A stretch of 64,000 nucleotides of DNA from Deltaproteobacteria bacterium (GTDB lineage: Bacteria; Desulfobacterota; Deferrimicrobia; Deferrimicrobiales; Deferrimicrobiaceae). A program made the position numbers and the translations under genes. This document shows positions 3,498 to 36,866 of this stretch, one piece after another. Below the pieces are notes generated by a model. The model ran no database searches and was not told the origin of the DNA. It saw only the letters and a list, made by a program, of their open reading frames with translations. Numbering within the stretch: position 1 is the stretch's first letter; every line of letters begins with the position of its first letter. The stretch lies in the NCBI GenBank assembly GCA_016219515.1, contig JACRMU010000065.1:1705-65704 (forward strand), read 5' to 3'.

Positions 3498-5042
3498 ATG
3501 GAAGCGATCCGGAAAGCCGCTCCCGTCATGGGGCGGGTCCTCCCCGAGGACCGTTACAACCTCGATCTCGTCGCCAACGTCCGCCCCCCCGGCTGGGAAA
3601 ACCCCGAGCCGGCGCCTCGCTACAACCTGGTCGTCATCGGAGCCGGGACCGCGGGTCTGGTGACCGCGGCCGGAGCTGCGGGCCTGGGCGCCAGGGTGGC
3701 GCTCGTGGAGCGGCACCTCATGGGCGGCGACTGCCTGAACGTCGGATGCGTGCCGTCGAAGTGCCTCATCCGCTCTTCCCGCGTCTCCTTCGATATCCGG
3801 GAGGCCGGCCGTTACGGGGTGGGGGCCGCGGGCGGAACCGCCGCCGATTTCCCGGCGGTGATGGAGCGGATGCGCCGGCTCCGGGCGGGCATCAGCGGGC
3901 ACGATTCCGCGGAGAGGTTCCGGTCGCTGGGGGTGGACGTGTTCTTCGGGGAAGGCCGGTTCGCGGGGCGGGACGCCGTCGAGGTCGGCGGGAAAACGCT
4001 GCGCTTCTCGAAAGCGGTGATCGCCACGGGGGCACGCGCCGCCGTCCCCGCCGTCGATGGGCTTGCCGAGGCCGGCTTCCTGACGAACGAGACCGTCTTC
4101 TCGCTTACCGAACTGCCGACGCGGCTCCTGGTCTTCGGCGCGGGGCCGATCGGGTGTGAAATGGCGCAGGCGTTCCGGCGGTTCGGCTCGGAGGTGACCC
4201 TCATCGAGCGGGCCCCACAATTCCTGACACGGGAGGACCCGGACGCCGCCGCGCTTCTCCACGAAACGTTCCGCAGGGAAGGGATCGACGTGCGGCTCAA
4301 CACCGCCGTAACGCGCATCGCCGCCGCCGGAAAGGAAAAGCGGGTCCATCTCCGGCGGAGCGACGGCAAGGAGGACACGATCGCCGTGGACGAGATCCTG
4401 ATCGGCGCCGGGCGCACCCCCAACGTGGAGGGCTTGGATCTCGATGCCGCCGGGGTCGGGTGCGACGCACGGGAAGGGATCGATACGGACGATTTCCTGC
4501 GGACCGCCAACCCGCGCATCTACGCCGCGGGAGATGTCTGCCTGAAGCACAAATTCACCCACACCGCCGATGCCGCCGCCCGCATCGCGATTCAGAATGC
4601 CCTCTTCCTGGGAAGGAAGAGGGTAAGCGCTCTCACCGTCCCCTGGTGCACCTACACCGACCCGGAGATCGCCCACGTCGGGATGTACGAGCGGGACGCG
4701 CGGGAAAGGGGGATTCCGGTGGAAACCTTCGTGCGGGAGATGCGCGAGGTGGACCGCTCCGTCGTGGACGGAGAGGAGGAAGGGTTCGTCAAGGTCCATA
4801 CCCGGAAGGGGACCGACAGGATCCTGGGAGCGACCATCGTAGCGCGCCACGCCGGCGAGATGATCAACGAGATCTCCCTGGCGATCGTGGGGAACATCGG
4901 CCTCGGGACCGTCGCGAACGTCATCCATTCCTATCCGACGCAGGCGGAAGCCGTCAAACAGGTCGCCGACGCGTACAACCGGACTCGGCTGACCCCGTTC
5001 GCGAAGAAGATCCTGGGCGGGTGGCTGGCCTGGACGAGGTAG
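3498..5042 (+). CDS. class I pyridine nucleotide-disulfide oxidoreductase (mercuric reductase / dihydrolipoamide dehydrogenase-like)
   Basis: FAD-binding GxGxxG (VVIGAGTAGL), redox-active CLNVGCVPSK motif, NAD-binding GAGPIGCE, C-terminal dimerisation domain. Frequently paired with TVP38 genes. Confidence 0.85.
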   Translation: MEAIRKAAPVMGRVLPEDRYNLDLVANVRPPGWENPEPAPRYNLVVIGAGTAGLVTAAGAAGLGARVALVERHLMGGDCLNVGCVPSKCLIRSSRVSFDIREAGRYGVGAAGGTAADFPAVMERMRRLRAGISGHDSAERFRSLGVDVFFGEGRFAGRDAVEVGGKTLRFSKAVIATGARAAVPAVDGLAEAGFLTNETVFSLTELPTRLLVFGAGPIGCEMAQAFRRFGSEVTLIERAPQFLTREDPDAAALLHETFRREGIDVRLNTAVTRIAAAGKEKRVHLRRSDGKEDTIAVDEILIGAGRTPNVEGLDLDAAGVGCDAREGIDTDDFLRTANPRIYAAGDVCLKHKFTHTADAAARIAIQNALFLGRKRVSALTVPWCTYTDPEIAHVGMYERDARERGIPVETFVREMREVDRSVVDGEEEGFVKVHTRKGTDRILGATIVARHAGEMINEISLAIVGNIGLGTVANVIHSYPTQAEAVKQVADAYNRTRLTPFAKKILGGWLAWTR

Positions 5043-5063: not shown

Positions 5064-6146
5064 CTACGGGATCGCCGGGACCTTGAGGCGGACCTCGTCC
5101 CCGGAGAGCGCCTCGACGAGAAAGGCCTTCAGCGCCCGTTTTTCCCCATCGCTTAACCCCAGCGGCGAAAGCGCCTTGTTCCCGGGACCTCCGCCCCGGT
5201 CGAGGAATTCGATGACTTCTTCCAGCGTCTTCAGGATTCCGTTGTGCATGTACGGAGCGGTCCTCGAAATTTCCCTCAAGGTCGGCGTCCGGAACGCTTT
5301 CCAATCCTTCCTGTCCTTGGTGACGAGGTAGCGTCCCGGGTCCTCCTCGAGATTCCGGTAGTCATCGTAGCCGAAGACCTTCGCCACGAAACGCCTTGTG
5401 GCCGTGATGCGCGGGTCCTTCCGGTACTCCGGGTTCTCGGGGACGTTCAGCGCGTGGAACCGGTCGTCCGACAGGTGGGGACCGAAGTGGCAGTCGGCGC
5501 ATTTCCCCTTTCCCGTGAAGATCCCGTACCCTCGCCGGGCCTCCGGGGACAGGGCTGCGTCGTCTCCCGCGAGATACCGGTCGATCGGCGCGTTGACGGA
5601 AACCAGGGTTCGCTCGAAGGCGGCGATCGCCATCGCGATCCGCGCTCTCGTGACCTCTCCGCCGAAGATTTTTTTGAATGCCGCCGCGTATTCCGGCACG
5701 ATCCGGAGCTTCTCCTCCAGAAAATCGAGATTCAGGTTCATTTCAAAGGAGGACATGACGGGGAAAAGCGCCTGCTCCTCCAACGTGGCGGCGCGGCCGT
5801 CGTGGAACAGGGACTGGAAGTAGGCCGCGTTGATCAAGGTGGGAGCGTTCCGCCAGTTCCGGGTCGTGGGATAGCTTAAGGAGATCTCCTGCCCGTCCGT
5901 GTACGCCTGGTCCGGGACGTGGCAGGAGGCGCAGCTCATCGTCCCGTCCCCGGAGAGGCGCCGGTCGAAGAAGAGCTTCTTTCCCAGCTCGATCTTTTCG
6001 ACGGTCTGGGGATTCCCCTCCGGGACCGGCGGAGGGGGGAGCGGCCGCAGCGCCCCCGCCCCGGCGGGAAGCGCAACGAGAAGCGTCGCCAGCAGGAGGC
6101 CCGCGGCGGGCAGGATTCCGCTCGGAAAGCTACCTCGCCGCCGCAA
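5064..6146 (-). CDS. ccp: di-heme cytochrome c peroxidase (CCP/MauG family), secreted
   Basis: Signal peptide and two CxxCH heme motifs (CASCH, CADCH), with the conserved CCP region FHDGRAATLEEQ. Its start overlaps the stop of the upstream dsbA-like gene by 17 nt. Confidence 0.9.
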   Translation of the reverse strand: MRRRGSFPSGILPAAGLLLATLLVALPAGAGALRPLPPPPVPEGNPQTVEKIELGKKLFFDRRLSGDGTMSCASCHVPDQAYTDGQEISLSYPTTRNWRNAPTLINAAYFQSLFHDGRAATLEEQALFPVMSSFEMNLNLDFLEEKLRIVPEYAAAFKKIFGGEVTRARIAMAIAAFERTLVSVNAPIDRYLAGDDAALSPEARRGYGIFTGKGKCADCHFGPHLSDDRFHALNVPENPEYRKDPRITATRRFVAKVFGYDDYRNLEEDPGRYLVTKDRKDWKAFRTPTLREISRTAPYMHNGILKTLEEVIEFLDRGGGPGNKALSPLGLSDGEKRALKAFLVEALSGDEVRLKVPAIP

Positions 6147-6744
6147 GCTCTTCCTCGACGATCTTCTTCAGATATTCGTAGGGGCGGTCTCCCACGACCT
6201 TCCTGCCGTTGAAAAAGAAGGTGGGCGTGCTGAAAAGGTCCAGCGACACGGCGAGCCGCCGGTCCTTCTCGATGATCTCTTCGTGCTTCATCCCGTCGAG
6301 CGATTCAACGAATCTCTTCATGTCCAGCCCGATCTCCTTCGCGCACCGCATGAGACTGGCCCGGTCCAGGTCGGGAGATTTCCTGAGCAGGAGGTGGTGC
6401 ATCTCCCAGAACTTCCCCTGGTCCCCGGCGGCCAGCGCCGCCTCGGATGCGATGTGGGAGAAGTCCCGGTACCGATAGGGGTATTGCTTGACGACCAGGC
6501 GGATTTTCCCCGGGTGCTTTTTCAGGAGCTTCTCGACGGTCGGACCGGCCGCCTTGCAGTGAGGTCACTGGTAATCGATGAACTCGATCAGCGTGACCGG
6601 GGCGTTCGGAGGGCCCAGGGCGTGCGAATTGCCGACGGGCACGTCGTACCGCTGCTCGGCGGCGATCGCCCGGGCGGCGGGAACCGCGGCGGCGAAGAGG
6701 AGGAGGCCCGCGGCGAGAAGCGCGGTTGCGAGCCCTTTCTTCAT
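6130..6744 (-). CDS. DsbA-like thioredoxin-fold thiol:disulfide oxidoreductase, selenoprotein with a UPHC active site (in-frame UGA at 6565-6567)
   Basis: Hand translation from ATG 6744: MKKGLATALLAAGLLLFAAAVPAARAIAAEQRYDVPVGNSHALGPPNAPVTLIEFIDYQ-[TGA]-PHCKAAGPTVEKLLKKHPGKIRLVVKQYPYRYRDFSHIASEAALAAGDQGKFWEMHHLLL... and on to the track ORF 6130-6402. The TGA sits exactly where DsbA has the first Cys of CPHC. Signal peptide present. RBS gaaggag 7 nt upstream. Confidence 0.7.
6565..6567 (-). other. predicted selenocysteine (UGA) recoding codon in the dsbA-like gene
   Basis: In-frame TGA at the position of the active-site Cys of the CxxC motif. The coding frame continues uninterrupted with high GC3 on both sides. 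Confidence 0.65.
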
Positions 6745-6792: not shown

Positions 6793-8259
6793 TCAGGCCC
6801 CGTCCTTCCGGGAATGCGGCTTGCCGTGCTCGGCGCCTTGCGAGGATTTCCCCTCGTCGCGGAAACGGTAGTAATCCTCCGGAGTGTTGATGTTCCGGAA
6901 GGACAGGAATTCGGGATCGAACCGGGAGACCTCATCGCCTGCGATCTTCCGGACCTTCACCTTGTCGAAGAAGGAGACGACCCTTCCCTTGCCTGCGTGG
7001 AGGGTCTCCTGGATGGCTTGCAGCGCGCCCTTCCCGTAGACGGCGTGCAGCGGCTCCAGCCCCTCCTTCCCCTCGGGGACGACCACGTCGCTCCCCTCCG
7101 CCAGGGAGGCCAGGTGCCGGATCAGAACGGGGTTGAGGTGCGGCATGTCGCAGGCCACGACGAACACATGCGGATCTTCGCTGTGGAACAGGCCGGAGTG
7201 GATCCCGGAAAGCGCCCCCATCCCGGGGATGAGATCCCTCACCTTCCGGCAGGGGAGGAAATCGAAAAGCTCCGGCGTATTGGTGACGACGAGGACCTCC
7301 CGGAAGAGGGCCGCCATCTGCCGGTGGATCGCCTCGACGAACCTTCCCCCCTGGTGGGGGAGCAGCGCCTTGTTGCTCCCCATGCGGCTGGAGGTCCCGC
7401 CGGCCAGGATGACGCCTGTGACGCCGGCGATCCTGTTCTCTTCCGGGGGGACGTCGATCCGCTCCGTGCCGGTATATAGATTGAATCTGCCGCCGCGCGC
7501 GTATCCGATGACGGCGATCCCAAGTTCCTGCGCCATCCGGACCGCCAGATCGGTGGGCGAGCTGCGGGAGGCGATGAGGGCGATCCCCAGGGAGGCCGCC
7601 TTCGCGACCATCTCGGAGGAGATCCTTCCGGAGGTGACGAGGATCTTCCCGGAGAGGTCGATGTTCTTGAGGAGCGCCTCGCCGGCGATCCGGTCCAGCG
7701 TGTTGTGCCGCCCGAGGTCCTCCGCGTGCAGCAGGACCGACCGGCCGTCGCCGACGGCGGCGGAGTGGATCCCGCCGTGGTTTTTGTATCTATCCGACTG
7801 CCGCGCCAGCTCGTTCATCATGGCGAAGACGTCGCCCGGGGAGAAGACCGTGTCGTCCATTCCCGTGACGCCCGGGGCGGGTATGTTTTCCTTCCCTCCG
7901 GCGGGGGGATGCAGGTGGAACGTGATCCCCGCTCCGCAGCCGGAGGTGAGCGTCGGCGTCAGCCGTGCCGGGACCTCTCCGCGGATCCGCACGGTGGCGG
8001 CGCCGAAATCTCCGCATACGCTGAGCACGAGAAGGTCGTCGGCGCTTTTCACCAGCCCCTGCATCCGGAGGAAGCCCGCCACCAGGTAGACCAGGTCGTG
8101 GGGGGAGGCGATCAGCGTGGCGAGCTCGACGCCGTTGACGGTGAGGGCGATGGGGAACTCCCGGACCGGGCGGTGCTCCATTTCGGAGAGCCGGCGGCCG
8201 TCGAACCGCAGGACGGGGGGTGGCTTTTCCGGTTCTTCCCGGTCCTTGCCGCGGCTCAT
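6793..8259 (-). CDS. fdhD: FdhD sulfurtransferase fused to MobA molybdenum cofactor guanylyltransferase
   Basis: The N-terminal half matches FdhD (…LVTSGRISSEMVAKAASLGIALIASRSSPTDLAV). The C-terminal half has the MobA motif GVILAGGTSSRMGSNKALL. The start ATG 8257-8259 overlaps the fdhE stop (ATGA). Confidence 0.8.
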   Translation of the reverse strand: MSRGKDREEPEKPPPVLRFDGRRLSEMEHRPVREFPIALTVNGVELATLIASPHDLVYLVAGFLRMQGLVKSADDLLVLSVCGDFGAATVRIRGEVPARLTPTLTSGCGAGITFHLHPPAGGKENIPAPGVTGMDDTVFSPGDVFAMMNELARQSDRYKNHGGIHSAAVGDGRSVLLHAEDLGRHNTLDRIAGEALLKNIDLSGKILVTSGRISSEMVAKAASLGIALIASRSSPTDLAVRMAQELGIAVIGYARGGRFNLYTGTERIDVPPEENRIAGVTGVILAGGTSSRMGSNKALLPHQGGRFVEAIHRQMAALFREVLVVTNTPELFDFLPCRKVRDLIPGMGALSGIHSGLFHSEDPHVFVVACDMPHLNPVLIRHLASLAEGSDVVVPEGKEGLEPLHAVYGKGALQAIQETLHAGKGRVVSFFDKVKVRKIAGDEVSRFDPEFLSFRNINTPEDYYRFRDEGKSSQGAEHGKPHSRKDGA

Positions 8260-9104
8260 CTTCCCCTCTCGAATCCTTCTTTCCCCGCCAGAAGGTCCAG
8301 GTGAAGGGTCGCCAGGTCCTCCGCTTCCAGCGGGACGTCCCCGTTCCCCTTCCGCGAATCCCTGGTCTTGATGTACCGGCTGCACTTGCGGCAGACGCCG
8401 ACCCGCACCGGCTCGTCCCCGGCGAGGAAATAGGAGAGGGTCTCCGGGTCCTGGTTGCCGCAGTAGGGGCAGCGGAGGCGCGGGAAGGGCCAGCGGAAGG
8501 AGCAGGCGGAGCAGCACAGGAAACGCTTCCCCTCTTCGCCCGCCAGTTCGTCCATCCCGGCCCGGGATCCGCAGACCGGACAATATCCCTCTTTCCACCC
8601 TTCGACCGTTTTCGGGTCGACCGATTCCGCGGCCAGCGAAAGCGCCGTCTTGAGAGAAGTTTCGAGAATGAATGTCAAAAGAGGCGGGCGGACGGAAATC
8701 GCGGCGGCCGCTTCCTCCAGGCTTTTCCGTTCCCGTTGGAGGCAGGCGGATAAGAGCAATGGTAGTTCCAGGGCGTTTTCTTCCAGCGCGCGCCCGATCC
8801 GGTCGAGTTCCACTCCTCCCAGCGGATCCCGGTTCGCCCCGCGTATGACGCCCACGATGCCGCTGAGAAACGCCCCTGCCTTTTCCCGGTCCACGGAAAG
8901 GTTCTCCGGGGCGACCAGGGGGAGCCCGCCGTTTACCCGTTCCGCGCCGTGCTGTTCCGGGAGGGCGAAGGATATGCCGGTGTCGCCCTCCCGTCCGTCG
9001 ATGTAGGCGAAGAGGCCCTGGAACAGCGAGAGGACCTCACGGTATTCCGGCCGCTCCCGGACCGTGCGATCCAGATGTTCCCTTTTCCTGCCGGTCTGCG
9101 GCAT
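8256..9104 (-). CDS. fdhE: formate dehydrogenase accessory protein FdhE
   Basis: Four Cys clusters (CPVCGS, CCSACSF, CPYCGN, CRKCSRY) in the FdhE arrangement. Immediately downstream of fdnI. Confidence 0.85.
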   Translation of the reverse strand: MPQTGRKREHLDRTVRERPEYREVLSLFQGLFAYIDGREGDTGISFALPEQHGAERVNGGLPLVAPENLSVDREKAGAFLSGIVGVIRGANRDPLGGVELDRIGRALEENALELPLLLSACLQRERKSLEEAAAAISVRPPLLTFILETSLKTALSLAAESVDPKTVEGWKEGYCPVCGSRAGMDELAGEEGKRFLCCSACSFRWPFPRLRCPYCGNQDPETLSYFLAGDEPVRVGVCRKCSRYIKTRDSRKGNGDVPLEAEDLATLHLDLLAGKEGFERGR

Positions 9105-9124: not shown

Positions 9125-9736
9125 TTACTGGCCGCTTATCTCCTTATACCATTTCGGATGGTGCGTTTTCGCCCAGATCCTCCGGACGTTCCCGTAGATC
9201 ATGCTTTCGAGCGTGCCCGGGTTGCCGATGGTGGTCAAATATGCGTGGACGATCACGAACATGATGAAGATGAGAAACAGCGTCCCGTGGAGCAGCAGGG
9301 AGAGCCGGACGATGCCGATCGGGAACGACGCGGGGAACCAGTTGATGAATCCGGTGACTCCGAGCAGAATCGTCGCGATCCCCATGAAAAGGCCGTAGGC
9401 CTTCTGCCCCGCGTTGAACTTGCCGCTGTTGATGTGTTCCGGGTCCCGGTCGAGGTAGCCTCCCAGGAGCCTGAACCAGCGCCGGTCGTCCTCGTCGAAG
9501 GAGTTCATTTCCTTGTAATGGTTCAGGAAGAGCAGGATGGAACTGACGAAGAAGACGACGCCCATGTATTTATGGATGAAGATCGCGGCTTCGCCGCCGC
9601 CGAAGAGGTCGAAATAGCCGTGGAAAATCCTGGAGTAAAGTCCCAGTCCCGAGAACACCAACATGAAAAACGACAACATGACGAACCAGTGGAGAATCCG
9701 CTCTCTCGCATTGAACCGCTCCACGTATTTACCCAT
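9125..9736 (-). CDS. fdnI: formate dehydrogenase gamma subunit (cytochrome b, FdnI/FdoI-like)
   Basis: Four-TM b-type cytochrome with conserved His. The start ATG at 9736 overlaps the fdnH stop by 8 nt. The track ORF 9125-9814 is N-extended through the overlap. Confidence 0.8.
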   Translation of the reverse strand: MGKYVERFNARERILHWFVMLSFFMLVFSGLGLYSRIFHGYFDLFGGGEAAIFIHKYMGVVFFVSSILLFLNHYKEMNSFDEDDRRWFRLLGGYLDRDPEHINSGKFNAGQKAYGLFMGIATILLGVTGFINWFPASFPIGIVRLSLLLHGTLFLIFIMFVIVHAYLTTIGNPGTLESMIYGNVRRIWAKTHHPKWYKEISGQ

Positions 9737-10508
9737 GTGCGCCGCCTCCCTTCTCCGAATTCTCTTCCTCCAGTTTTCTGGGGCCGAAGGTGACGTAGTG
9801 GGTGAGGACCCCAACGATGCTGCCCCAGAAGCCGATGAGCCCCAGCGGTTTCAGCACGTCTTTCCAGAGGAAGATGGACGTGGGGATGGAGGGGTTCGCC
9901 GGCAGGCCGTAGACTTCCGGCTTGTCGTCCAGCAGGTAGAGCACGCCCAGCCCCGCAAGGTCCGCCTCGCCGTAGAGCGTCTTTTTCGCGGCCTTCGCCT
10001 TGGCGACGAGCCCGCTCCGCGGCCCGTACTGGAGCGTCTGCGTCGGGCACGCCTTCGCGCAGGCCGGGGACATCCCCGCGCCGATGCGGTCGAAGCAGAG
10101 GTGGCACTTGGAGACCTTCTCGTCGGCGCCGTACCGCGGGACGCCGAAGGGGCAGGCCGATACGCAGTACTTGCACGAGATGCACTTCTCCGCGTTGAAG
10201 GCGACGAACCCTTCACGGGTCCGGTAGAGGGCCCCCGGGGAAGGGCAGACCTTCATGCAGCCGGCGTCGCCGCAGTGTACGCACCGCTCGTTCAGGAAAA
10301 GCCACTTGAGGTTGCCGCCGTCGGTCTTCTCTATGAACCGGATCCGGTTGTAGAGGTTGGAGGTCAGGTCGCGGGGGTTTTCGTAGGTCCCCTGGTTGAC
10401 GGTCTTGTCGGCGTCGAGCTTGTTCCACTGCTTGCAGGCCACCTGGCAGGAGCGGCAGCCGATGCAGCGCGACGTATCGATCAGGAATGCCATTCTCGAT
10501 TCGGCCAT
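9729..10508 (-). CDS. fdnH: formate dehydrogenase iron-sulfur (beta) subunit, FdnH-like, with C-terminal TM anchor
   Basis: Four ferredoxin-type Cys clusters (CIGCRSCQVAC, CVHCGDAGCMKVCP, CISCKYCVSACP, CHLCFDR…CAKACP). Starts MAESRMAFLIDTS, 5 nt after the fdhA stop. Confidence 0.85.
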   Translation of the reverse strand: MAESRMAFLIDTSRCIGCRSCQVACKQWNKLDADKTVNQGTYENPRDLTSNLYNRIRFIEKTDGGNLKWLFLNERCVHCGDAGCMKVCPSPGALYRTREGFVAFNAEKCISCKYCVSACPFGVPRYGADEKVSKCHLCFDRIGAGMSPACAKACPTQTLQYGPRSGLVAKAKAAKKTLYGEADLAGLGVLYLLDDKPEVYGLPANPSIPTSIFLWKDVLKPLGLIGFWGSIVGVLTHYVTFGPRKLEEENSEKGGGAHG

Positions 10509-10513: not shown

Positions 10514-13500
10514 TCACCCCTTGCTCTTGATATTGACCATGAACGCCTTGGTTTCCGGGATCATGGTGTTGGCGTCTCCGACGGTCGGCGTGAGAAGGTT
10601 CGCTGAATCGCCGACGGCCGGTGTGAACCACCCGAAGCACCAGGGCATCCCCACCTGATGGACGGTGGAGTTGGCCACCTTGAACGGCTTGAAGCGGGGG
10701 GTGACAACGGCGACGGCCTCGATCTTTCCCCTCGCCGAGGAGACCTCCAGGAGGTCTCCGCTCTTGATGTTCTTCTCCTTGGCCAGCTCCACGGACATTT
10801 CAACGAACTGCCGGGGCTGAAGCTCCAGCAGCCAGGGGACGTTCCGGGAGAGGACCCCGGTCTGCCAATGCTCCGTGACCCGGTACGTCGTGGCCACGAA
10901 CGGGAACCGGGTGTCGCACGAGGCGAATACGTCTTCGGGCATCCCGTCGGCCGAGAAGATCTTGGCGGCGGGGTTTACGCGCTGCTTGGACAGAGGGTTC
11001 TCCTGGACCGGGCACTCCAGCGGCTCGTAGTGCTCGGGGAAGGGGCCCTCCTTCAGGCCGGGCCCGAAGATCGCGGCGACCCCGTCCGCCCGCATGATGT
11101 ACGGCTTCTTCCCCTCCTTCTCGTTGCCCATCGGGGGCCACGGCCCGTCGGGGACGTCTCCCTCCCACTTGCCGAACTTGCCGTCCGGCATGGGGGCGGT
11201 CGGGTTCCAGAAGATGACCGCCTTCTTCACGTTGAACGGCTTGCCGTCGAGGTCGACGGAAGCGCGGTTATAGATGATCCGGCGATTGACCGGCCAAGCC
11301 CACGCCCACTCGGAGAAGAGGCCCAGGCCCGTGGGGTCTTTCTTCCCCCGCCGCGCCATCATGTTCCCGTTTTGGTTGTAGCTCTGGCAGTAGATCCAGC
11401 TCCCGCAGGAGGTCGTGCCGTCGGCCTGGAGCAGCGCGAAACCGGGCACCAGCTCCCCCTTCTTGCCCAGGAGCTTCTCCTTGGGCGGCTTCTGCCCGGG
11501 TTTCGGCTTGTTCGGCACGTCGGCCAGGAAGTAGCCGTTGATCTCCTTGGCCACCGCGTGGATGTCCACCGTCTTGACGGTGCCGTCGGCCCGCTTGAAG
11601 CCGTACCCCCAGGCGAGGTTCATCAGCGGATCGGGGAAGGCCCCTTTCTCCTTGGCGTAGAGCCCCTTGATCCGGTAGAACAGGTCGTTCATGATCTCGG
11701 CGTCCGGCCGGGACTGCCCCAGGGGTTTGACCGCCGGGACGCGCCACTGCGCCATGCGCGACGAGTTCGTGATGCTCCCTTCCTTCTCGAACGAGGCGGC
11801 GGCCGGCAGGAAAAAAACCTCCGTCTTGATCTTGGCGGGATCCACCCCCGGTCCCTTCCAGAACGATGCGGTCTCGTTGTCGAAGAGGTTGACCGTCACC
11901 ATCCATTCCAGGGTGGCAAGCCCCTTGCGGACCTTCCCCGCGTTGGTGCCGGAGCAGGCGGGGTTCTGGCCCCAGGCGAAGAACCCCTTGTACTTTCCGC
12001 GCGCCATGTTGTCGAAGAGCATGATCCAGGAGGCGTTCATGCCAGGGTCGGTCTTGGGCAGCCAGTGGTATCCGAAGTCGTTCTGCTTGGTCGCCTTGGC
12101 CCCGTAGATCGCCTTGAGGTAGGAGACGATGTACTTGTTCCGGTTCCCCCACCAGTTCGCGCTCATCGGGTCTTTCGTCTTGGGCGTGTACTTCTCGATG
12201 TAGGCGGTGAGGTCCTTGATGTCCGCCGACGGAACCGGCATGTAGCCGGGCAGGATGTGGAAGAGAACGCCGTGGTCGGTCGACCCCTGGACGTTGGACT
12301 CGCCGCGCATCGCGTTCACGCCGCCGCCGGCCACGCCCATGTTGCCCAGCAGGAGCTGGATGATCGACATCGCCCGGATGTTCTGGGTCCCCACGGTGTG
12401 CTGGGTCCATCCCATCGCGTAGAGGGAGGTCCCGGCCCGGTCCGGCTTCCCCGTAGATGCATACGCCTCGTAGACCTTGAGGAGCGTTTCCTTCGGGGTG
12501 CCCGTGATGCTGGAAACCATCTCCGGCGTGTACCGGGAGTAGTGCTTCTTCATCAGCTGGAACACGCAGCGCGGATTCGAGAGGGTTTCGTCCTTGACGA
12601 TCTTGTCGTCCGTGTCCTTCTGGAAGGACCACTTCTTGGCGTCATAGGAGCGCTTCTTGGCGTCGTAGCCGGAGAAGAGGCCGGCGAGCTCCCCGGGGCC
12701 TTTGAAGTCCGGGCCGACCACGTAGCTCGCGTTGGTGTACTTCTTGACCGCCACATCCATGTAGAGCTTGTTCTGAAGAATGTAGTTGATCATCCCGCCG
12801 AGGAAGGCGATGTCGGTTCCCGAGCGCAAAGGAGCGTAGATGTCGGCCTTCGACGCGCTTCGGGTGAAGCGCGGGTCCACCACGATGATCTTTCCGCCCG
12901 CGTCTTTCGCCTTCATGATCCACCGGAAGGCGACCGGGTGGTTCTCCGCGGGGTTGGCCCCCATGATGAGCACTACGTCAGCGTTCTTTACGTCGATCCA
13001 GTGATTCGTCATCGCGCCTCGTCCGAACGACTCTGCCAGAGCCGCTACAGTGGCGCTGTGTCATATTCGCGCCTGGTGCTCGATGGCGACCAGGCCCAAC
13101 CCCCTCATCATCTTCTGGAGGAGATAGCACTCCTCGTTGTCCAGGGCGGCGCTCCCGACGTGGGCGATCCCCATCGTCCGGTTGACGACCGCCTCGATCT
13201 CCTTCTCCACTTCCTTGTCGCCCACCTTCTCCTTGACCTTGATCCTGCTCTTGGCCTGGAAGGTGGCGTCCCGGGTCTTTTTCGTCCTCTTGGCGATCTC
13301 GTCGAGCGCCCAGTCCCAGGAGACTTCCTTCCACTCCTTCTCCCCCGGGGCCCGGTAGAGCGGCTTGGTCACCCGCGCCGCGTTGTCCCGGAGCTGAATG
13401 ACGGAAGAACCCTTCGGGCAGAGCGACCCCTCGTTGATGGGGTGGTCCGGGTCCCCCTCGGCGTTGATGAGGTTGCCGTTCAGCGAGTGGAGGATCAATC

Positions 13501-13663
13501 CGCATCCGACCGAGCAGTAGGGGCAGATGCTCGTCGACTCCTTCGCGTACCGGATCTGCAGGTCCTGGGCTTTCGCCTCGACCGGCTCGAGGGAGAGGCC
13601 GAGTACGCCGGCGGCCAGTCCCGCCCCGGAGAGCTTGAACAATTCCCTCCTGGAAATTCCCAT
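10514..13663 (-). CDS. fdhA: periplasmic formate dehydrogenase catalytic (alpha) subunit, selenocysteine-containing, Tat-exported
   Basis: Track ORFs 13061-13846 and 10514-13012 are one gene joined by an in-frame TGA at 13061-13063: …AIEHQARI-[U]-HSATVAALAESFG… is the canonical FdnG Sec site. Tat motif MGISRRELFKLSGAGLAAG. RBS aaggagg 7 nt before ATG 13663. Sec is codon 201, comparable to E. coli FdnG. Confidence 0.85.
13061..13063 (-). other. selenocysteine (UGA) codon of fdhA
   Basis: In-frame TGA within the conserved EHQARI-U-HS motif. Read directly from the sequence. Confidence 0.85.
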
Positions 13664-13921
13664 GCGTTGCACCTCCTTTTCTTGAGGCGAGTTAATGAAT
13701 AAAAAAAAAGGAATCCATGCCTGGATTCTTGGAATTCGCGGGGTGTGGAATCGGAGGTGCGAAGAAATATTATAAAATGGTTTTATAAAGATCAATAAAA
13801 AAATTACTTGGGAAACAGTATGTTTTCTCAATAGAATGAATTTCATAGTATTTCTGTAGGGTTTCGTTCGGTACCCACTGAATCGTGAAAAAAAATGCGT
13901 TTTATTTTGTATTGACTCGAT

Positions 13922-13945
13922 CGTTATAAATCATATTATATAACG
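13922..13945. promoter_or_regulatory. ModE-type operator-like palindrome CGTTATAaatcatattaTATAACG in the fdhA/modE divergent AT-rich region
   Basis: 24-nt near-palindrome with CGTTATA/TATAACG arms, resembling E. coli ModE boxes (CGTTATATT-N-ATATAACG type). Lies 68 nt upstream of modE and inside the roughly 350-nt AT-rich region upstream of fdhA. Confidence 0.5.
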
Positions 13946-14012
13946 CTCGACAAGCAGGTCCGCGTGCAGGCGCAGGTCGTTTTCTAAAAAAATAAGGAGG
14001 GCACGGCCGCCG

Positions 14013-14825
14013 ATGCGCCGGGCAAGGAACAAGCTGGAAGTCTCGGGGGCGGTCTGGCTCCATAAGGCGGACGCCGTCCTCCTGGGAAGCGACCGGATCG
14101 GGCTGCTGGAGAAGATCGAAGAGAACGGCTCGATCACGAAGGCGGCCCGGGCGGCGGGGATCAGCTACAAGACGGCATGGGATGTCGTGAGCGCCATCAA
14201 CAACCTCTCGGAAAAGCCGCTCGTCCGGCGGACGACGGGCGGCAAGGGGGGAGGAGGTACCGTTCTCACCGAGGAAGGGAGGGAGGTCGTCCGAAGATAC
14301 CGGGTCCTGCAGCGGGAGCACGAGAGGTTCCTCGGGGGGCTTTCGGAAAAAATCGGAGACGTGGAGAACTTCTATCGGTTTTTGCGGAGGATCGCCATGA
14401 GAGTGAGCGCGAGAAACACGTTTTTGGGGAAGGTCGCGGGCGTCAAGAAAGGGGCCGTCAGCGCGGAGGTGACGCTTTCCCTCAAGGGGGGCGATACGGT
14501 CGTCGCGGTCATCACGAAGGAGAGCGTGGAAAGCCTGGGCCTCCGGAAGGGGATGGAGGCGTACGCCATCATCAAGGCGAGCTCGGTCCTGCTGGGGAAG
14601 GATCTCCACGAAGCGAGGATCAGCGCGCGGAACCTCCTGTGCGGCACCGTGGAGAAGCTGGCGGAAGGCCCGGTGAACGAGGACGTGACCGTGAAACTCT
14701 CGGGAGGGAACGTACTGACCTCCGTCATCACCCGGGAAAGCGCGAAGAAGCTGGCACTCAAGCCCGGCGACCACGTCTGCGCCGTCATCAAGGCGTCCAG
14801 CGTCATCCTGGGGGTGAGCGGGTGA
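14013..14825 (+). CDS. modE: molybdate/tungstate-responsive transcriptional regulator ModE (HTH + two TOBE/Mop domains)
   Basis: N-terminal ModE HTH (SITKAARAAGISYKTAWD) followed by two Mop-domain repeats (…VTLSLKGGDTVVAVITKESVESLGL… and …VTVKLSGGNVLTSVITRESAKKLAL…). Strong RBS taaggaggg. Confidence 0.85.
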   Translation: MRRARNKLEVSGAVWLHKADAVLLGSDRIGLLEKIEENGSITKAARAAGISYKTAWDVVSAINNLSEKPLVRRTTGGKGGGGTVLTEEGREVVRRYRVLQREHERFLGGLSEKIGDVENFYRFLRRIAMRVSARNTFLGKVAGVKKGAVSAEVTLSLKGGDTVVAVITKESVESLGLRKGMEAYAIIKASSVLLGKDLHEARISARNLLCGTVEKLAEGPVNEDVTVKLSGGNVLTSVITRESAKKLALKPGDHVCAVIKASSVILGVSG

Positions 14826-15685
14826 CGCGGCGGGGAACGAGGGAATTCCATCGCCGTAGTTGCATTCTGCCGGCCTGGTGTCTCCTTCTTGCATTCATTG
14901 CCGGTATGCTGCCCGGCTCGCCGGTGCTGGCGATGGAACGGCTGCGGATGTCCACCACCACCTCCACGGAAAACTCCGGGCTCCTCGCCGTGCTGCTCCC
15001 GCCCTTCGAGAAGAAGCATGGCTGCAAAGTCGACGTGATCGCCGTGGGGACCGGGAAATCGCTCAAGCTGGGCGAGACCGGGGACGTGGACGTGGTGTTC
15101 GTCCACGCGCGGAAACCGGAGGACAAGTTCGTCGCCGACGGGTTCGGGGTGAACCGCAGGGACGTCATGTACAACGACTTCGTAATCCTGGGCCCCCCGG
15201 ACGATCCGGCGGGGATCCGGAACACGGTCAGCGCTTCGGACGCCTTTGCCCGGATCGCGGCGGCGCAGGCCCGCTTCGTCTCCCGGGGAGACGAGTCCGG
15301 CACCCACCAGAAGGAAAAGGAGATCTGGAAGGCCGCCGGGATCGTCCCGAAGGGGAAGTGGTACCTGGAGGCCGGCCAGGGGATGGGGGAAGTGATCCAG
15401 ATGGCGGCCCAGGTGCGCGGCTACACGCTCGCCGACCGGGGGACGTACATCGCGTATCGGAAGAAGACCGACCTCGCCGTCCTCCGGCAGGGGGACAAGG
15501 GGCTTTGGAACCCCTACGGCGTCATCGCCGTGAACCCGGCGAGGCACCCGCACGTGAAACACGGGCTGGCCATGAAGTTCATCGAATACCTGACCGGCGA
15601 GGAGGGTCGGCGGATCATCGCCGATTTCAAGATCGACGGGGAGCCGCTCTTCTTCGTCCACGGCCCGCATGAAGTGAAGCACTAA
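14822..15685 (+). CDS. tupA: tungstate ABC transporter substrate-binding protein TupA
   Basis: Carries the TupA-specific TTTSTENSGLL motif. GTG start overlaps the modE stop (GTGA). Signal-peptide-like N-terminus. The start codon choice is uncertain (the track's in-frame ORF begins at 14177). Confidence 0.75.
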   Translation: MTRRGTREFHRRSCILPAWCLLLAFIAGMLPGSPVLAMERLRMSTTTSTENSGLLAVLLPPFEKKHGCKVDVIAVGTGKSLKLGETGDVDVVFVHARKPEDKFVADGFGVNRRDVMYNDFVILGPPDDPAGIRNTVSASDAFARIAAAQARFVSRGDESGTHQKEKEIWKAAGIVPKGKWYLEAGQGMGEVIQMAAQVRGYTLADRGTYIAYRKKTDLAVLRQGDKGLWNPYGVIAVNPARHPHVKHGLAMKFIEYLTGEEGRRIIADFKIDGEPLFFVHGPHEVKH

Positions 15686-16372
15686 GTGGATTTCCTGCTC
15701 GACTCATTGAGGGCCTCGCTCTACCTCATCGTGACGCGGGACCCGGCTTTCTGCCATGCGGTCTGGACCTCCCTGTACGTTTCCTTCTGGTCGATCATCT
15801 TTGCGGCGCTCCTCGGGATTCCCGCCGGGCTTGCCGTGGGGCTTACGGAGTTTCCCCTGAAGCGGACGGTCATCACCGGACTCAACAGCCTGATGGCCGT
15901 CCCCACGGTGCTCATCGGCCTCCTGGTCTACGGGTTCATCAGCCGCCAGGGGCCGTTCGGAGGGTTCGGTCTCCTGTTCACCCCCTCCGCCATCATCGTC
16001 GGCGATGCGCTCCTTGCCGCGCCGATCGTGGCCAACCTCGCCTTGAGCTCCGTGCGGGGGGCGAATGCCGCCATCCTTCCCACCGCGATGACGCTCGGGG
16101 GAGACCGTCTCCAGAGCGTCCTTACGCTGGTCTCCGAAATCCGTTTCGGCATGGTGGCCGCCGTGATCGCGGGGTTCGGAAGGGTCGTCTCCGAGGTCGG
16201 GGTGGCGATGATGCTGGGGGGGAACATCCTCGGGTACACGCGGACGATGACCACCGCGATCGCCCTGGAGACGAGCAAAGGGGAGTTTGCCCTGGGGATC
16301 GCCCTGGGGATCGTCCTGATGGCGGTTGCGCTGGCGGTGAACGTCATTTTTCAGTTCCTGCAGAGGAAGTAG
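15686..16372 (+). CDS. tupB: tungstate ABC transporter permease TupB
   Basis: Six-TM ABC permease with the EAA-like loop. GTG start immediately after the tupA stop. Confidence 0.85.
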   Translation: MDFLLDSLRASLYLIVTRDPAFCHAVWTSLYVSFWSIIFAALLGIPAGLAVGLTEFPLKRTVITGLNSLMAVPTVLIGLLVYGFISRQGPFGGFGLLFTPSAIIVGDALLAAPIVANLALSSVRGANAAILPTAMTLGGDRLQSVLTLVSEIRFGMVAAVIAGFGRVVSEVGVAMMLGGNILGYTRTMTTAIALETSKGEFALGIALGIVLMAVALAVNVIFQFLQRK

Positions 16373-16374
16373 CA

Positions 16375-17061: not shown

Positions 17062-17080
17062 GGAACGAAAGCAGGACAGG

Positions 17081-36285: not shown

Positions 36286-36705
36286 TCAGTGAATCTTCCT
36301 GTCCCGGCCCTTCGCGGCCGGGAAAAAGAACCCGGGGGCGCGGTGCCTCCGCCTTGCGAACCAGCGGTAAAAAGCGCGGGTGAGGACATCCGCTCCCGGC
36401 AGGCGGAGCAGGCAGGCAAGCCGGCGATATCCGCGGAGGCGCCGGAGGATTTCGGGCATCGCCTGCTCGCCGATGAGAACGGAACCGTCCGGGAGGATCA
36501 GGTGCATCGCCTGGAGGCAGGCGGATTTTTCGATCCGGGGAAATCGTTTCGCAAGTTCGTCGGCGTGACAGGAAAGGAACTCGAAAGCGTCCGGGTCCGA
36601 GCGGGCGCGGATCCAGTCGACCGCCCGGATGCATACCGGACACTCCCTGTCGTAGATGAGGACCGGTTTTTCGGGGGCCGCCACGGGCGTTTCCGGCAAG
36701 GCCAT
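36286..36705 (-). CDS. thiol-disulfide oxidoreductase DCC family (DUF393) protein
   Basis: VLIYDRECPVCIRAVDWI is the DCC-family CxxC signature. Start chosen at MALPETP, which has an RBS; the track's upstream ATG at 36723 has no SD. Confidence 0.7.
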   Translation of the reverse strand: MALPETPVAAPEKPVLIYDRECPVCIRAVDWIRARSDPDAFEFLSCHADELAKRFPRIEKSACLQAMHLILPDGSVLIGEQAMPEILRRLRGYRRLACLLRLPGADVLTRAFYRWFARRRHRAPGFFFPAAKGRDRKIH

Positions 36706-36866
36706 GTTCTCCGCCGATCGCATGATCCCTCTCTAACGCGTCCCTCTTCCCGCAGGGCGCCTTCTCTACCCGTTGGATGATATCCTCGGCGGAAGGGCTT
36801 TTTCCCCGGCGGCGCATCCTGCGGTCTTTTGCCGCATCGTAAGGAGAAAATGACGGAGGGTCGACA

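What the first reader, a model, noticed from the sequence alone, without database searches (positions are those of the whole stretch)
5064..6744. UxxC selenoprotein DsbA-like oxidoreductase plus di-heme cytochrome c peroxidase appended to a selenocysteine FDH operon
The dsbA-like gene has an in-frame TGA exactly at the first Cys of CPHC (…EFIDYQ-U-PHC…), so the ORF caller split and partly missed it. It is translationally coupled to a CCP (17-nt overlap) and lies directly downstream of fdhD::mobA on the same strand. This suggests a periplasmic redox/peroxide-protection module co-expressed with the FDH. Sec-DsbA families have been noted in selenoproteome surveys, but the operon context with fdh and ccp is worth documenting. 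A bacterial SECIS hairpin should lie in about 40 nt of coding sequence 3' of the UGA (6525-6564); I cannot fold it here.
Basis: partly seen in the sequence, partly recalled or inferred. Interest (0 to 1): 0.6.

Follow-up and report, generated by a model that had tools for sequence, protein, structure and literature searches.

The report
Selenocysteine DsbA paired with haem peroxidase
The in-frame TGA is a real selenocysteine codon in a periplasmic DsbA-like oxidoreductase, a protein type already known from selenoprotein surveys; what seems undocumented is that in 75 of 75 related genomes this gene sits next to the same di-haem peroxidase-like gene, usually inside a selenocysteine formate dehydrogenase operon.

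Summary
Observation confirmed. The minus-strand gene 6744..6130 encodes a 204-residue exported DsbA/Thioredoxin_4 protein. Its TGA at 6567..6565 replaces the first Cys of CPHC.

All 80 orthologous loci from 80 species-level genomes carry TGA at this codon. A hairpin 11 nt downstream (6553..6535, GGUC at nt 22-25) sits in the same register as the E. coli fdhF SECIS. Its synonymous sites are almost frozen: GGT 76/80, CCG 80/80. It also shows compensatory changes (U-A or C-G).

UxxC "DsbA-like" selenoproteins have been catalogued since 2005, so the protein is a new member of a known kind.

The context adds something. A specific di-haem CCP-like gene follows dsbA(U) in 75/75 loci with enough sequence. 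43/47 loci with both flanks carry FDH genes. Gene order differs between lineages, so the pair is an integral part of the cluster, not an appendage.

The linked FdnG subunits, and E. coli FdnG does not, keep both cysteines of the D. vulgaris FdhAB oxygen-protection disulfide (C845-C872). This suggests a testable idea that the pair operates that switch. Function remains inferred.

The parts
6130..6744 (-). dsbA(U): 204-codon DsbA/Thioredoxin_4-like selenoprotein gene (ATG 6744, TAG 6132..6130)
   Evidence: Orthologues in 80 loci, 55-82% identity.
6667..6744 (-). Predicted Sec-type signal peptide MKKGLATALLAAGLLLFAAAVPAARA, followed by IAAEQ
   Evidence: Read directly from the translation: basic n-region, hydrophobic core, A-R-A site, no lipobox Cys. 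No predictor was run.
6565..6567 (-). In-frame UGA, the selenocysteine codon U60 (UGA-C context)
   Evidence: TGA in 80/80 orthologous loci. Aligns with Cys of CPYC in 3gyk.
6556..6567 (-). Redox motif U-P-H-C (U60..C63)
   Evidence: P, H and C are invariant in 80 unique sequences.
6535..6553 (-). SECIS-like hairpin, nt 15-33 counted from the U of UGA: 8-pair stem with one C.A mismatch (6553..6546 with 6542..6535) and apical G23-U24-C25 (6545..6543)
   Evidence: Present in the MFE and centroid folds. Synonymous sites almost invariant. Pair counts and compensatory changes. It is the MFE in 73/81 when nt 12-45 are folded. Same register as the E. coli fdhF SECIS (PMC8659212).
5064..6146 (-). Di-haem CCP/MauG-family gene. 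TTG start 6146 with GAGGA 6 nt upstream; 17-nt overlap with the dsbA stop.
   Evidence: The TTG is conserved in frame in L081. JGI calls the 360-aa form and NCBI (MBI5342674.1) a 350-aa form.
5919..5933 (-). Haem-binding motif 1, C72-A-S-C-H76 (peroxidatic-haem domain)
   Evidence: Invariant in 68 orthologues.
5487..5501 (-). Haem-binding motif 2, C216-A-D-C-H220
   Evidence: Invariant in 68 orthologues.
6793..8259 (-). fdhD::mobA fusion gene. Its ATG overlaps the fdhE stop (ATGA).
   Evidence: Pfam FdhD-NarQ + NTP_transf_3, NCBIfam, coordinates. The same fusion occurs in L081.
8256..9104 (-). fdhE (FDH accessory protein)
   Evidence: An identical protein occurs on Logan metagenome contigs.
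9125..9736 (-). fdnI, cytochrome b gamma subunit
   Evidence: Pfam Ni_hydr_CYTB. TIGR01583 at 169 bits, above the 116-bit cut-off.
9729..10508 (-). fdnH, 4Fe-4S beta subunit with C-terminal membrane anchor
   Evidence: Pfam Fer4_11 + Form-deh_trans. Start placed from the translation and the 259-aa orthologue length in L081/L086.
10514..13663 (-). fdnG, Tat-exported selenocysteine FDH catalytic subunit. Sec UGA 13063..13061, own SECIS hairpin 13046..13026. Cys884 (11014..11012) and Cys916 (10918..10916) align with the D. vulgaris FdhA C845/C872 switch disulfide.

Best explanation
SHOWN. 6744..6130 is one intact gene for an exported DsbA-like thiol/selenol oxidoreductase with active site U-P-H-C. 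UGA 6567..6565 is most likely decoded as selenocysteine. A small hairpin that starts 11 nt after the UGA presents G23-U24 in its apical loop. This is the geometry that SelB reads in the E. coli fdhF SECIS. The UGA-C context is a weak terminator (my own knowledge). SelB:GTP:Sec-tRNA(Sec) would bind the hairpin as the ribosome reaches the UGA.

SHOWN. The gene is one half of an invariant two-gene unit with a particular clade of di-haem CCP/MauG-family proteins. That unit is embedded in operons for a periplasmic, membrane-anchored, selenocysteine formate dehydrogenase (fdnGHI plus fdhE, fdhD::mobA).

INFERRED (about 50%). The pair is a periplasmic redox-maintenance module dedicated to this oxygen- and peroxide-sensitive enzyme. 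The haem protein would react with H2O2, which Sec/W FDHs themselves produce in air. The fast-reacting selenol/thiol DsbA would make, break or repair disulfide or selenenylsulfide bonds on the FDH or on its haem partner.
For: Recoding.
- TGA in 80/80 orthologous loci from distinct species-level genomes, with strong amino-acid conservation and normal synonymous drift on both sides.
- Codons +5 to +10 are almost frozen: GCG 59/59, GCC 55/57, GGT 76/80, CCG 80/80, ACC 59/60. Entropy is 0-0.3 bit there, against 0.9-2.3 elsewhere.
- 87% of cells pair in register, against 20-56% when the partner is slid. Pair 20-28 is U-A in 21, C-G in 18 and U-G in 2. Pair 18-30 has one G-C to A-U double change.
- The hairpin is in the MFE and centroid folds of the window, and in 73/81 sequences when nt 12-45 are folded.
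- It starts 11 nt after the UGA with G23-U24 in the apical loop, as in E. coli, whose 17-nt upper stem-loop spans nt 15-31 (PMC8659212).
- A canonical Sec FdnG lies in the same operon, and the linked FdnG has TGA in 42/42.
- Other genes in the window end in TGA, for example fdhD::mobA and fdhE.

Family. Pfam and PDB matches. UxxC DsbA-like selenoproteins are in the literature.

Module.
- CCP lies downstream in 75/75 loci.
- FdnG lies upstream in 42/59, and at least one FDH gene is present in 43/47 loci with both flanks.
- Three different gene orders keep the pair with FDH genes.
- The nearest Cys homologues, tandem DsbAs of Polyangia, have no CCP or FDH context.
- A W/Sec FDH generates H2O2 in air (bioRxiv 10.1101/2022.01.18.476765).
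Against: - There is no experimental evidence for Se incorporation.
- The hairpin is short and only moderately stable (-7.6 kcal/mol in the window, with a C.A mismatch). The 71-nt fold is no better than shuffles (z = +0.63). When the UGA-proximal bases are included, only 35/81 orthologues give the hairpin as the MFE, because GACC (nt 2-5) can pair with GGUC.
- There is no bulged U17 as in E. coli, and no Rfam match.
- No selA, selB, selC or selD gene lies in the 64-kb window.
- Amino-acid constraints on the AAGPTV peptide confound part of the nucleotide conservation.
- The functional part rests on gene neighbourhood only.
- The CCP-like protein lacks the distal His, has His in place of the inter-haem Trp in the window, and has Leu at the canonical Met-ligand position. 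It may not be a conventional peroxidase.
Confidence: 0.78

Rival explanations
1. The pair is self-contained and the FDH linkage is only co-regulation. Either DsbA(U) is the direct electron donor of the CCP-like haem protein (a selenol/thiol-driven peroxide reductase), or DsbA(U) is a dedicated redox chaperone for the cytochrome's CxxCH motifs. FDH would not be a substrate.
For: CCP adjacency is absolute (75/75), whereas FDH structural genes are adjacent in only 42/59. L010 has acs-dsbA(U)-ccp-fdhE without fdnGHI. No small cytochrome c or cupredoxin donor is encoded in the operon.
Against: Even where fdnGHI is not adjacent, fdhE usually follows ccp (12 of 16 such loci). In the window's clade the pair sits between FDH maturation genes. 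Known apocytochrome reductases (CcmG/ResA) are plain TlpA-type thioredoxins, not DsbA-fold proteins (my own knowledge). No thiol-dependent di-haem CCP is known to me.
Confidence: 0.25
2. DsbA(U) is the cell's general periplasmic disulfide-forming catalyst (a housekeeping DsbA), and it happens to lie near FDH genes.
For: DsbA fold, signal peptide, CPHC-type motif identical to E. coli DsbA apart from Sec (the E. coli motif is from my own knowledge).
Against: The CCP partner is invariant and the FDH context recurs across Nitrospirota and Desulfobacterota despite rearrangements. No dsbB-like gene is adjacent. L044 has two tandem copies, which is unusual for a housekeeping gene.
Confidence: 0.1
3. 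The TGA is a true stop: a pseudogene or two separate small genes. Alternatively it is read as Trp or Gly under an alternative genetic code.
For: Automatic annotations split the gene. One JGI product shows W at the site (P0002).
Against: - TGA is fixed in 80/80 species, with purifying selection on both sides and a conserved downstream RNA element.
- The C-terminal fragment would lack its signal peptide and its active-site nucleophile.
- TGA terminates neighbouring genes in the window.
- The same operon has TGA at the classical Sec position of FdnG.
Confidence: 0.02

Closest known systems
'DsbA-like' UxxC selenoprotein family. Zhang, Fomenko & Gladyshev 2005, PMC1088965; Zhang et al. 2006, PMC1794560; Peng et al. 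2016, PMC5029168 (45 genes in 41 organisms); 2026 review PMC13188914 ('DsbA-like protein form 1', PF01323, UxxC).
   Same: PF01323 domain, Sec at the first position of the CxxC motif, SECIS in the coding sequence just after the UGA, Cys-containing homologues.
   Different: The Sargasso set was assigned to COG2761. This clade scores best with PF13462 Thioredoxin_4, has a signal peptide, and shows no Cys-form orthologue above about 50% identity in the best 120 hits. The papers I could read do not mention its obligate CCP partner or its FDH-operon context.
NCBIfam NF041057, Rcas_1661 family thioredoxin-like (seleno)lipoprotein
   Same: A DsbA/thioredoxin-like exported (seleno)protein. It is the only NCBIfam hit (E 4e-27).
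   Different: The score is 95 bits against a cut-off of 190, and only the C-terminal 160 residues align. There is no lipobox. The window protein is not a member. No NCBIfam model covers this clade, which fits with the truncated products in the NCBI records.
E. coli fdhF SECIS (upper stem-loop nt 15-31, bulged U17, G23/U24 in the loop; PMC8659212)
   Same: The hairpin starts 11 nt after the UGA. GGUC lies at nt 22-25, with G23 and U24 apical. The context is UGA-C.
   Different: No bulged U17. The stem has 8 pairs, with a C.A mismatch in the window. The loop is probably 3-5 nt. SelB specificity in these phyla is untested.
Bacterial di-haem cytochrome c peroxidases (Paracoccus 2c1u; Geobacter 3hq6 and 4aal) and the protein-modifying relatives MauG and the MbnH family (TIGR04039)
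   Same: Two CxxCH motifs. The Asn of RNAPT and the Gln/Glu-Met of the peroxidatic site are conserved. Sequence E-values are about 1e-48 to CCPs and 1.8e-46 over the full length to 6e1c, a PDB entry titled 'Di-heme enzyme'.
   Different: The distal His is Tyr in 68/68. The inter-haem Trp position is His 48, Tyr 8, Trp 7, Phe 3. The canonical Met-ligand position is Leu. There is a 30-residue insertion. The protein is below the MauG and MbnH equivalog cut-offs (236/444 and 215/363 bits).
D. vulgaris FdhAB allosteric disulfide C845-C872, an oxygen-protection switch (Oliveira et al. 2024, Nat Chem Biol 20:111, as cited in 10.1101/2024.01.10.571421, PMC13397495 and PMC13066108)
   Same: The window FdnG C-terminal half is closest to DvFdhA (E 3e-142, against 1.7e-96 for E. 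coli FdnG). It has Cys at both aligned positions (C884, C916). Both are conserved in 42/42 and 40/40 linked FdnGs, whereas E. coli FdnG has Thr and Lys.
   Different: This enzyme is membrane-anchored (FdnH anchor plus FdnI cytochrome b), not the soluble FdhAB. Whether the disulfide forms here is unknown. No Dsb partner was named in the secondary sources I could read. I could not read the primary paper or examine the D. vulgaris locus.
Cys-type DsbA-like proteins with solved structures: 3gyk, ScsC (4gxz, 6mhh, 6nen), BdbD (3eu3)
   Same: Same domain over residues 39-202. The CxxC aligns with UPHC, and the cis-Pro (TPT) loop is present.
   Different: 25-35% identity, Cys not Sec, and different contexts (copper resistance for ScsC, competence for BdbD).

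Membership tests
Bacterial selenoprotein gene (UGA-Sec recoding) | In-frame UGA at a position occupied by a redox Cys in homologues | tested here: met
   The UGA aligns with the first Cys of CPYC (3gyk) and CGYC (7rgv), and with FQCGFC in P0003.
Bacterial selenoprotein gene (UGA-Sec recoding) | UGA and the reading frame on both sides conserved in orthologues | tested here: met
   80/80 loci have TGA. Flanking codons show conserved residues with synonymous drift.
Bacterial selenoprotein gene (UGA-Sec recoding) | SECIS stem-loop immediately 3' of the UGA, with G/U in the apical loop | tested here: met
   Hairpin at nt 15-33 with GGUC at 22-25. Synonymous sites frozen. Compensatory pairs. Stability alone is unremarkable.
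Bacterial selenoprotein gene (UGA-Sec recoding) | selA, selB, selC, selD present in the genome | tested here: inconclusive
   None in the 64-kb window; the AIRS protein is HypE. A canonical Sec FdnG in the same operon implies the machinery. The rest of the genome was not available.
Bacterial selenoprotein gene (UGA-Sec recoding) | Selenium in the translated product | not testable with these tools
   Needs 75Se labelling or mass spectrometry.
DsbA-like oxidoreductase (Pfam PF01323 / PF13462) | Domain match above the curated cut-off | tested here: met
   Thioredoxin_4 93.9 bits (cut-off 23.2). DSBA 76.7 bits (cut-off 25.6).
DsbA-like oxidoreductase (Pfam PF01323 / PF13462) | CxxC-type active site and cis-Pro loop | tested here: met
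   U60-P-H-C63. T173-P174-T175 is invariant in alignment A1.
DsbA-like oxidoreductase (Pfam PF01323 / PF13462) | Export to the periplasm | tested here: inconclusive
   A signal-peptide-like N-terminus was read by eye. No predictor was available.
'DsbA-like' selenoprotein (literature family, form 1) | PF01323 domain with a UxxC motif | tested here: met
   Definition taken from PMC13188914.
NCBIfam NF041057 Rcas_1661 (seleno)lipoprotein | Score at or above the curated cut-off (190 bits) | tested here: not met
   95.3 bits, partial alignment.
Bacterial di-haem cytochrome c peroxidase | PF03150 domain, two CxxCH motifs, peroxidatic Gln/Glu, Ca-site Asn | tested here: met
   175 bits. All are invariant in 68 orthologues. 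Alignment to 2c1u.
Bacterial di-haem cytochrome c peroxidase | Distal His on the activation loop, and inter-haem Trp | tested here: not met
   His is replaced by Tyr in 68/68. The Trp position is His in the window and variable elsewhere.
Bacterial di-haem cytochrome c peroxidase | His/Met ligation of the electron-transfer haem | tested here: inconclusive
   The canonical Met position aligns with Leu. Met300 in the invariant PYMHNG might substitute. No structure was made.
MauG (TIGR03791) / MbnH (TIGR04039) protein-modifying di-haem enzymes | Equivalog score at or above the cut-off | tested here: not met
   236 against 444 bits, and 215 against 363 bits.
FDH-N-type periplasmic selenocysteine formate dehydrogenase operon | Tat-signal FdnG with Sec, FdnH with anchor, FdnI cytochrome b, FdhE and FdhD | tested here: met
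FdhA with allosteric switch disulfide (D. vulgaris type) | Cys at both positions equivalent to C845 and C872 | tested here: met
   C884 and C916 align exactly. They are conserved in the linked FdnGs and absent in E. coli FdnG.
FdhA with allosteric switch disulfide (D. vulgaris type) | The disulfide actually forms and gates activity | not testable with these tools
   Needs biochemistry or a structure.

The most novel reading that the evidence does not exclude
DsbA(U) and its CCP-like partner could be the dedicated in-vivo operator of the oxygen-protection disulfide of periplasmic Sec/W(Mo) formate dehydrogenases. The di-haem protein would react with H2O2 and oxidise the selenol/thiol of DsbA(U), acting as a peroxide-driven substitute for DsbB. 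Oxidised DsbA(U) would then close the C884-C916 bond of FdnG (C845-C872 in D. vulgaris FdhA) and park the enzyme in its O2-resistant resting state. The high exchange rate of Sec would also allow rapid re-opening when conditions turn reducing.
Probability: 0.2. Interest if true: 0.75.

Novelty: new member of a known kind. Interest (0 to 1): 0.48.

Why it matters
1. Annotation. This clade of selenoproteins is systematically truncated in public records, for example NCBI MBI5575596.1 (131 aa) and MGW8272293.1 (142 aa). No NCBIfam or Rfam model covers the protein or its SECIS. The very conserved motif UGA-N11-hairpin(GGUCC) would allow automatic rescue.

2. Biology. An invariant Sec-DsbA / di-haem pair wired into selenocysteine FDH operons across Nitrospirota and Desulfobacterota points to a dedicated periplasmic redox accessory system. 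The enzyme class it accompanies is of strong biotechnological interest as CO2 reductases.

3. A testable lead. Exactly these FDHs keep the two cysteines of the D. vulgaris oxygen-protection switch. No physiological oxidant or reductant for that switch is named in the papers I could read. This gives a concrete candidate.

4. Selenium use. The clade appears to be Sec-only, with no close Cys form found. This is unusual for thiol oxidoreductase selenoproteins and bears on why Sec is kept.

Tried and rejected
- Whole-region folding. The 71-nt fold is no more stable than shuffles (z +0.63). Unconstrained folds of UGA+42 give the hairpin in only 35/81 orthologues, because UGACC pairs with GGUC. Energy alone therefore does not prove the SECIS; conservation does.
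- Rfam. Nothing at gathering thresholds. At E<1 only the FdnG SECIS weakly hits SECIS_3 (23 bits against 63). The DsbA hairpin has no hit.
- SelD candidate. The AIRS-domain ORF 37371..38381 is HypE: it ends in PRIC and sits next to hypD/F/B.
- Exhaustive HMMER search of representatives with the post-UGA fragment. Proteins with 2-6 tandem DsbA repeats dominate the list, so it was useless for estimating the Sec:Cys ratio.
- Exact look-ups of the window CCP (360 aa) and of P0271 found no contig. The source was identified only through cluster membership: MBI5342674.1, MAG 'Deltaproteobacteria bacterium'.
- Nearest Cys homologues (tandem DsbA, Polyangia) were checked for CCP or FDH context. None was found.
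- Literature searches for a described DsbA-CCP-FDH link found nothing relevant. The primary paper on the FdhAB switch is not held.
- Promoter and terminator scan. No minus-strand signals lie between fdnG and ccp other than weak ones. This is compatible with one operon but not decisive.
- A covariance model of the SECIS was considered. It was not built, because the window sequence would match by construction.
Full report
**1. What is in the sequence**

On the minus strand, an ORF starts at ATG 6744. An AGGAG lies about 7 nt upstream, and the fdhD::mobA stop lies 48 nt upstream. The ORF runs to TAG 6130 if the TGA at 6567..6565 is read through.

The product has 204 residues. It begins with a signal-peptide-like segment, MKKGLATALLAAGLLLFAAAVPAARA. 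It then reads ...APVTLIEFIDYQ-U-PHCKAAGPT... and ends with the cis-Pro region FSTPTFFFNGRKV.

With Cys in place of the stop it matches Pfam Thioredoxin_4 (1.6e-26) and DSBA (2.6e-21), both far above their cut-offs. In alignments to solved DsbA-like proteins (3gyk, ScsC, BdbD) the TGA falls on the first Cys of CPYC/CGYC.

The next gene is 6146..5064, a di-haem CCP_MauG-family protein (1.6e-51).
- It has a TTG start, with GAGGA six bases upstream, that overlaps the dsbA stop by 17 nt.
- The same in-frame TTG exists in the closest relative.
- JGI calls the 360-aa form. NCBI's record (MBI5342674.1, MAG 'Deltaproteobacteria bacterium') uses a start 10 codons later, which would remove the basic n-region of the signal peptide.

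Only the exact overlap depends on the choice of start codon.

**2. The operon**

Upstream on the same strand lie the following genes:

| Gene | Coordinates | Notes |
|---|---|---|
| fdnG | 13663..10514 | Tat motif RRELFK; TGA at 13063..13061 in the classical ...HQARI-U-HSATV... site |
| fdnH | 10508..9729 | 4Fe-4S subunit with membrane anchor |
| fdnI | 9736..9125 | Cytochrome b |
| fdhE | 9104..8256 | Accessory protein |
| fdhD::mobA | 8259..6793 | Fusion; ATGA overlap with fdhE |

No convincing promoter or terminator separates these genes from dsbA-ccp. A convergent pyridine-nucleotide disulfide oxidoreductase gene (3498..5042, + strand) closes the unit. Divergently upstream are a ModE-like regulator, a PBP_like_2 ABC transporter and moeA.

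No sel gene and no tRNA lie in the 64 kb. The one AIRS-domain ORF is HypE. The Sec FdnG in the same transcript nevertheless implies that the organism decodes UGA as Sec.

**3. Is the UGA a selenocysteine codon?**

A protein search returned 1456 relatives. Among the best 120:
- 107 are 124-145 aa products that begin just after the UGA position;
- one full-length JGI product has W at the site;
- the only other full-length proteins are tandem two-domain Cys forms at about 40-45% identity.

A scan of one genome per species found 242 relatives and returned the best 80 loci. These are mostly Nitrospirota/Thermodesulfovibrionales and Desulfobulbales. All 80 have TGA at this codon (63, 17), with the peptide conserved on both sides.

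Codon statistics on 80 unique sequences show ordinary synonymous drift around the site, with entropy 0.9-2.3 bits. Codons +5 to +10 are the exception and are almost frozen: GCG 59/59, GCC 55/57, GGT 76/80, CCG 80/80, ACC 59/60, GTC 59/69. That is the signature of an RNA element inside the coding sequence.

The element is a hairpin at nt 15-33 counted from the U of UGA (window 6553..6535), with GGUCC at the top.
- It appears in the MFE and centroid folds of the window.
- In the 81-sequence alignment, 87% of cells form standard pairs in register, against 20-56% when the 3' strand is slid.
- Pair 20-28 is U-A in 21 sequences, C-G in 18 and U-G in 2. In 33 sequences, including the window, it is a C.A mismatch.
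- Pair 18-30 has one G-C to A-U double change.

The position matches the E. coli fdhF SECIS as described in PMC8659212: an upper stem-loop 11 nt from the UGA with G23 and U24 in the apical loop.

There are caveats.
- The hairpin is small (-7.6 kcal/mol in the window).
- The 71-nt fold is not better than shuffles.
- With the UGA-proximal bases included, many orthologues prefer UGACC:GGUC pairing.
- When only nt 12-45 are folded, the part that I assume is outside the ribosome when the UGA is decoded, the hairpin is the MFE in 73/81, with mean pair probability 0.82.

A pseudogene, two separate genes or an alternative code can be excluded for practical purposes. TGA also terminates fdhD::mobA and fdhE in this window.

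**4. Comparison with what is known**

UxxC 'DsbA-like' selenoproteins were reported in the Sargasso Sea selenoproteome (PMC1088965). They were later reported in Anaeromyxobacter, Desulfovibrio desulfuricans and Desulfotomaculum reducens (PMC1794560). A 2016 survey counted 45 genes in 41 organisms (PMC5029168). A 2026 review lists them as 'DsbA-like protein form 1' (PMC13188914). By that definition (PF01323 plus UxxC) the window protein is a member.

It is not a member of the one related NCBIfam model, NF041057 (95 bits against a cut-off of 190). Rfam has nothing for its SECIS. This fits with the truncated products in the NCBI records.

**5. What the surroundings add**

I ran tblastn with the window proteins against the 80 loci.
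- The CCP-like gene (62-85% identity) follows dsbA(U) in 75 of 75 loci with at least 600 nt downstream. In three of them a roughly 1-kb gene is inserted; in L013 it is a TPR protein.
- FdnG lies upstream in 42 of 59 loci with at least 5 kb upstream.
- 43 of 47 loci with both flanks carry at least one FDH gene.

The gene order differs between lineages:
- fdnG-fdnH-fdnI-dsbA(U)-ccp-fdhE in Nitrospirota (L001);
- fdnGHI-fdhE-fdhD::mobA-dsbA(U)-ccp in the window, L003 and L017;
- the same order followed by mobB in the closest relative, L081-83;
- acs-dsbA(U)-ccp-fdhE without fdnGHI in L010.

A linkage that survives such rearrangement argues for function and not mere descent. Every linked FdnG has TGA at the Sec site and its own, different, conserved SECIS (42/42). 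The nearest Cys-type homologue examined has no CCP or FDH neighbours.

**6. The partner protein**

It is clearly a CCP/MauG-superfamily di-haem protein. Sequence E-values are about 1e-48 to the Paracoccus and Geobacter CCPs, and 1.8e-46 over the full length to 6e1c, a PDB entry titled 'Di-heme enzyme'.

In 68 orthologues both CxxCH motifs, the Ca-site Asn and the peroxidatic Gln/Glu-Met are invariant. Other features depart from canonical CCPs:
- the distal His that ligates the peroxidatic haem in resting CCPs is Tyr in 68/68;
- the inter-haem Trp position is His 48, Tyr 8, Trp 7, Phe 3;
- the canonical Met-ligand position is Leu;
- there is a 30-residue insertion.

It is below the MauG and MbnH equivalog cut-offs. 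It very probably reacts with H2O2. Whether it is a scavenger or, like MauG and the MbnH family, acts on a protein partner is open.

**7. A lead: the FDH redox switch**

The C-terminal half of the window FdnG is much closer to D. vulgaris W/Sec FdhA (E 3e-142) than to E. coli FdnG (1.7e-96). In the printed alignment, DvFdhA C845 and C872 align with window C884 (EPLECPV) and C916 (FASCDTRFP).

These two cysteines form the allosteric disulfide that holds DvFdhAB in an O2-protected, low-affinity state (citing Oliveira et al. 2024). Both are conserved in the linked FdnGs (42/42 and 40/40). E. coli FdnG has Thr and Lys there.

A W/Sec FDH from D. vulgaris also produces H2O2 in air.

An operon-encoded periplasmic Sec-DsbA with a peroxide-reactive haem partner is thus a natural candidate to write or erase this bond. 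This is inference from co-occurrence only. I could not examine D. vulgaris itself, nor test exclusivity of the association.

**8. Verdict**

- The selenoprotein itself is a new member of a known family, so it is unsurprising to a selenoprotein specialist.
- The invariant DsbA(U)-CCP pairing and its integration in Sec-FDH operons is a well-supported comparative result. So is the coincidence with the switch cysteines. I did not find either in the literature available here. Together they give a concrete, testable hypothesis.
- My confidence that the UGA encodes Sec is about 0.95.
- My confidence that the pair serves the FDH as a redox or peroxide accessory is about 0.5.
- My confidence that it specifically operates the Cys-Cys switch is about 0.2.
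- Interest: 0.48.

Noticed in passing
window 13664..13930 (minus strand): The fdnG leader is an AT-rich, apparently non-coding stretch of about 270 nt in a 65% GC window. It has a terminator-like hairpin plus U-run at 13728..13711, upstream of the fdnG start. A ModE-like regulator (13944..14825, + strand) is divergent. This could be an attenuator or an unknown riboswitch. Rfam finds nothing.
   Followed up: partly
window 13026..13046 (minus strand): The FdnG SECIS has a 9-bp stem and a GGC loop 17 nt after UGA 13063..13061. It is conserved almost base for base in 42 linked fdnG genes. It hits Rfam SECIS_3 only weakly (23 bits, gathering score 63). Its shape differs from the DsbA SECIS in the same operon, so one SelB must read two hairpin types.
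   Followed up: partly
window 10916..10918 and 11012..11014 (minus strand): FdnG Cys916 and Cys884 align with the D. vulgaris FdhA switch disulfide C872/C845. They are conserved in all linked FdnGs and absent in E. coli FdnG.
   Followed up: yes
L044 2011..3292: Two tandem Sec-DsbA paralogues (U-PHC and U-PLC, 49% identical to the query) precede the ccp gene. The second has its own different hairpin (GGUC-AGUUC-GACC) after its TGA.
   Followed up: partly
L081 10500..11000 (also L082, L083): In the closest relative (DsbA 82% identical), a mobB gene directly follows ccp. The dsbA(U)-ccp pair is therefore flanked on both sides by molybdopterin/FDH maturation genes. In the window a convergent disulfide-reductase-family gene follows instead.
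   Followed up: partly
window 6523..6567 (minus strand) and alignment A2: Bases 2-5 of UGACC are complementary to the invariant GGUC of the SECIS loop. Many orthologues fold this alternative as their MFE. It could mask the loop or the UGA on untranslated mRNA, or it could simply be a by-product of the Pro codon.
   Followed up: partly
public records (P0018 = MBI5575596.1, P0024 = MGW8272293.1, P0002): Orthologues are deposited as 131-142 aa 'thioredoxin domain-containing' or 'DsbA family' proteins that start after the UGA. One JGI product shows W at the UGA. No NCBIfam model rescues this clade.
   Followed up: yes
window 14177..18289 (+ strand): Next to the FDH operon lie a periplasmic PBP_like_2 binding protein, a 228-aa ORF with no Pfam match, an ABC ATPase and MoeA. 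This suggests a tungstate or molybdate uptake and cofactor-insertion locus. The metal of this FDH is undetermined.
   Followed up: no
window 36286..43420: hypE (ends in PRIC), hypD, hypF and hypB hydrogenase maturation genes. Beside them are a DCC1-like thiol-disulfide oxidoreductase (36286..36732, minus strand) and a cupredoxin-like ORF (36843..37319, + strand).
   Followed up: no
proteins P0121-P0270: The exhaustive HMMER search surfaced many proteins with 2-6 tandem DsbA/Thioredoxin_4 repeats, up to 1196 aa. Their role is unknown to me.
   Followed up: no
L013 6864..7577; also L022 and L050: In three loci about 1 kb separates dsbA(U) from ccp. In L013 the inserted gene encodes a TPR-repeat protein with a membrane segment.
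   Followed up: partly
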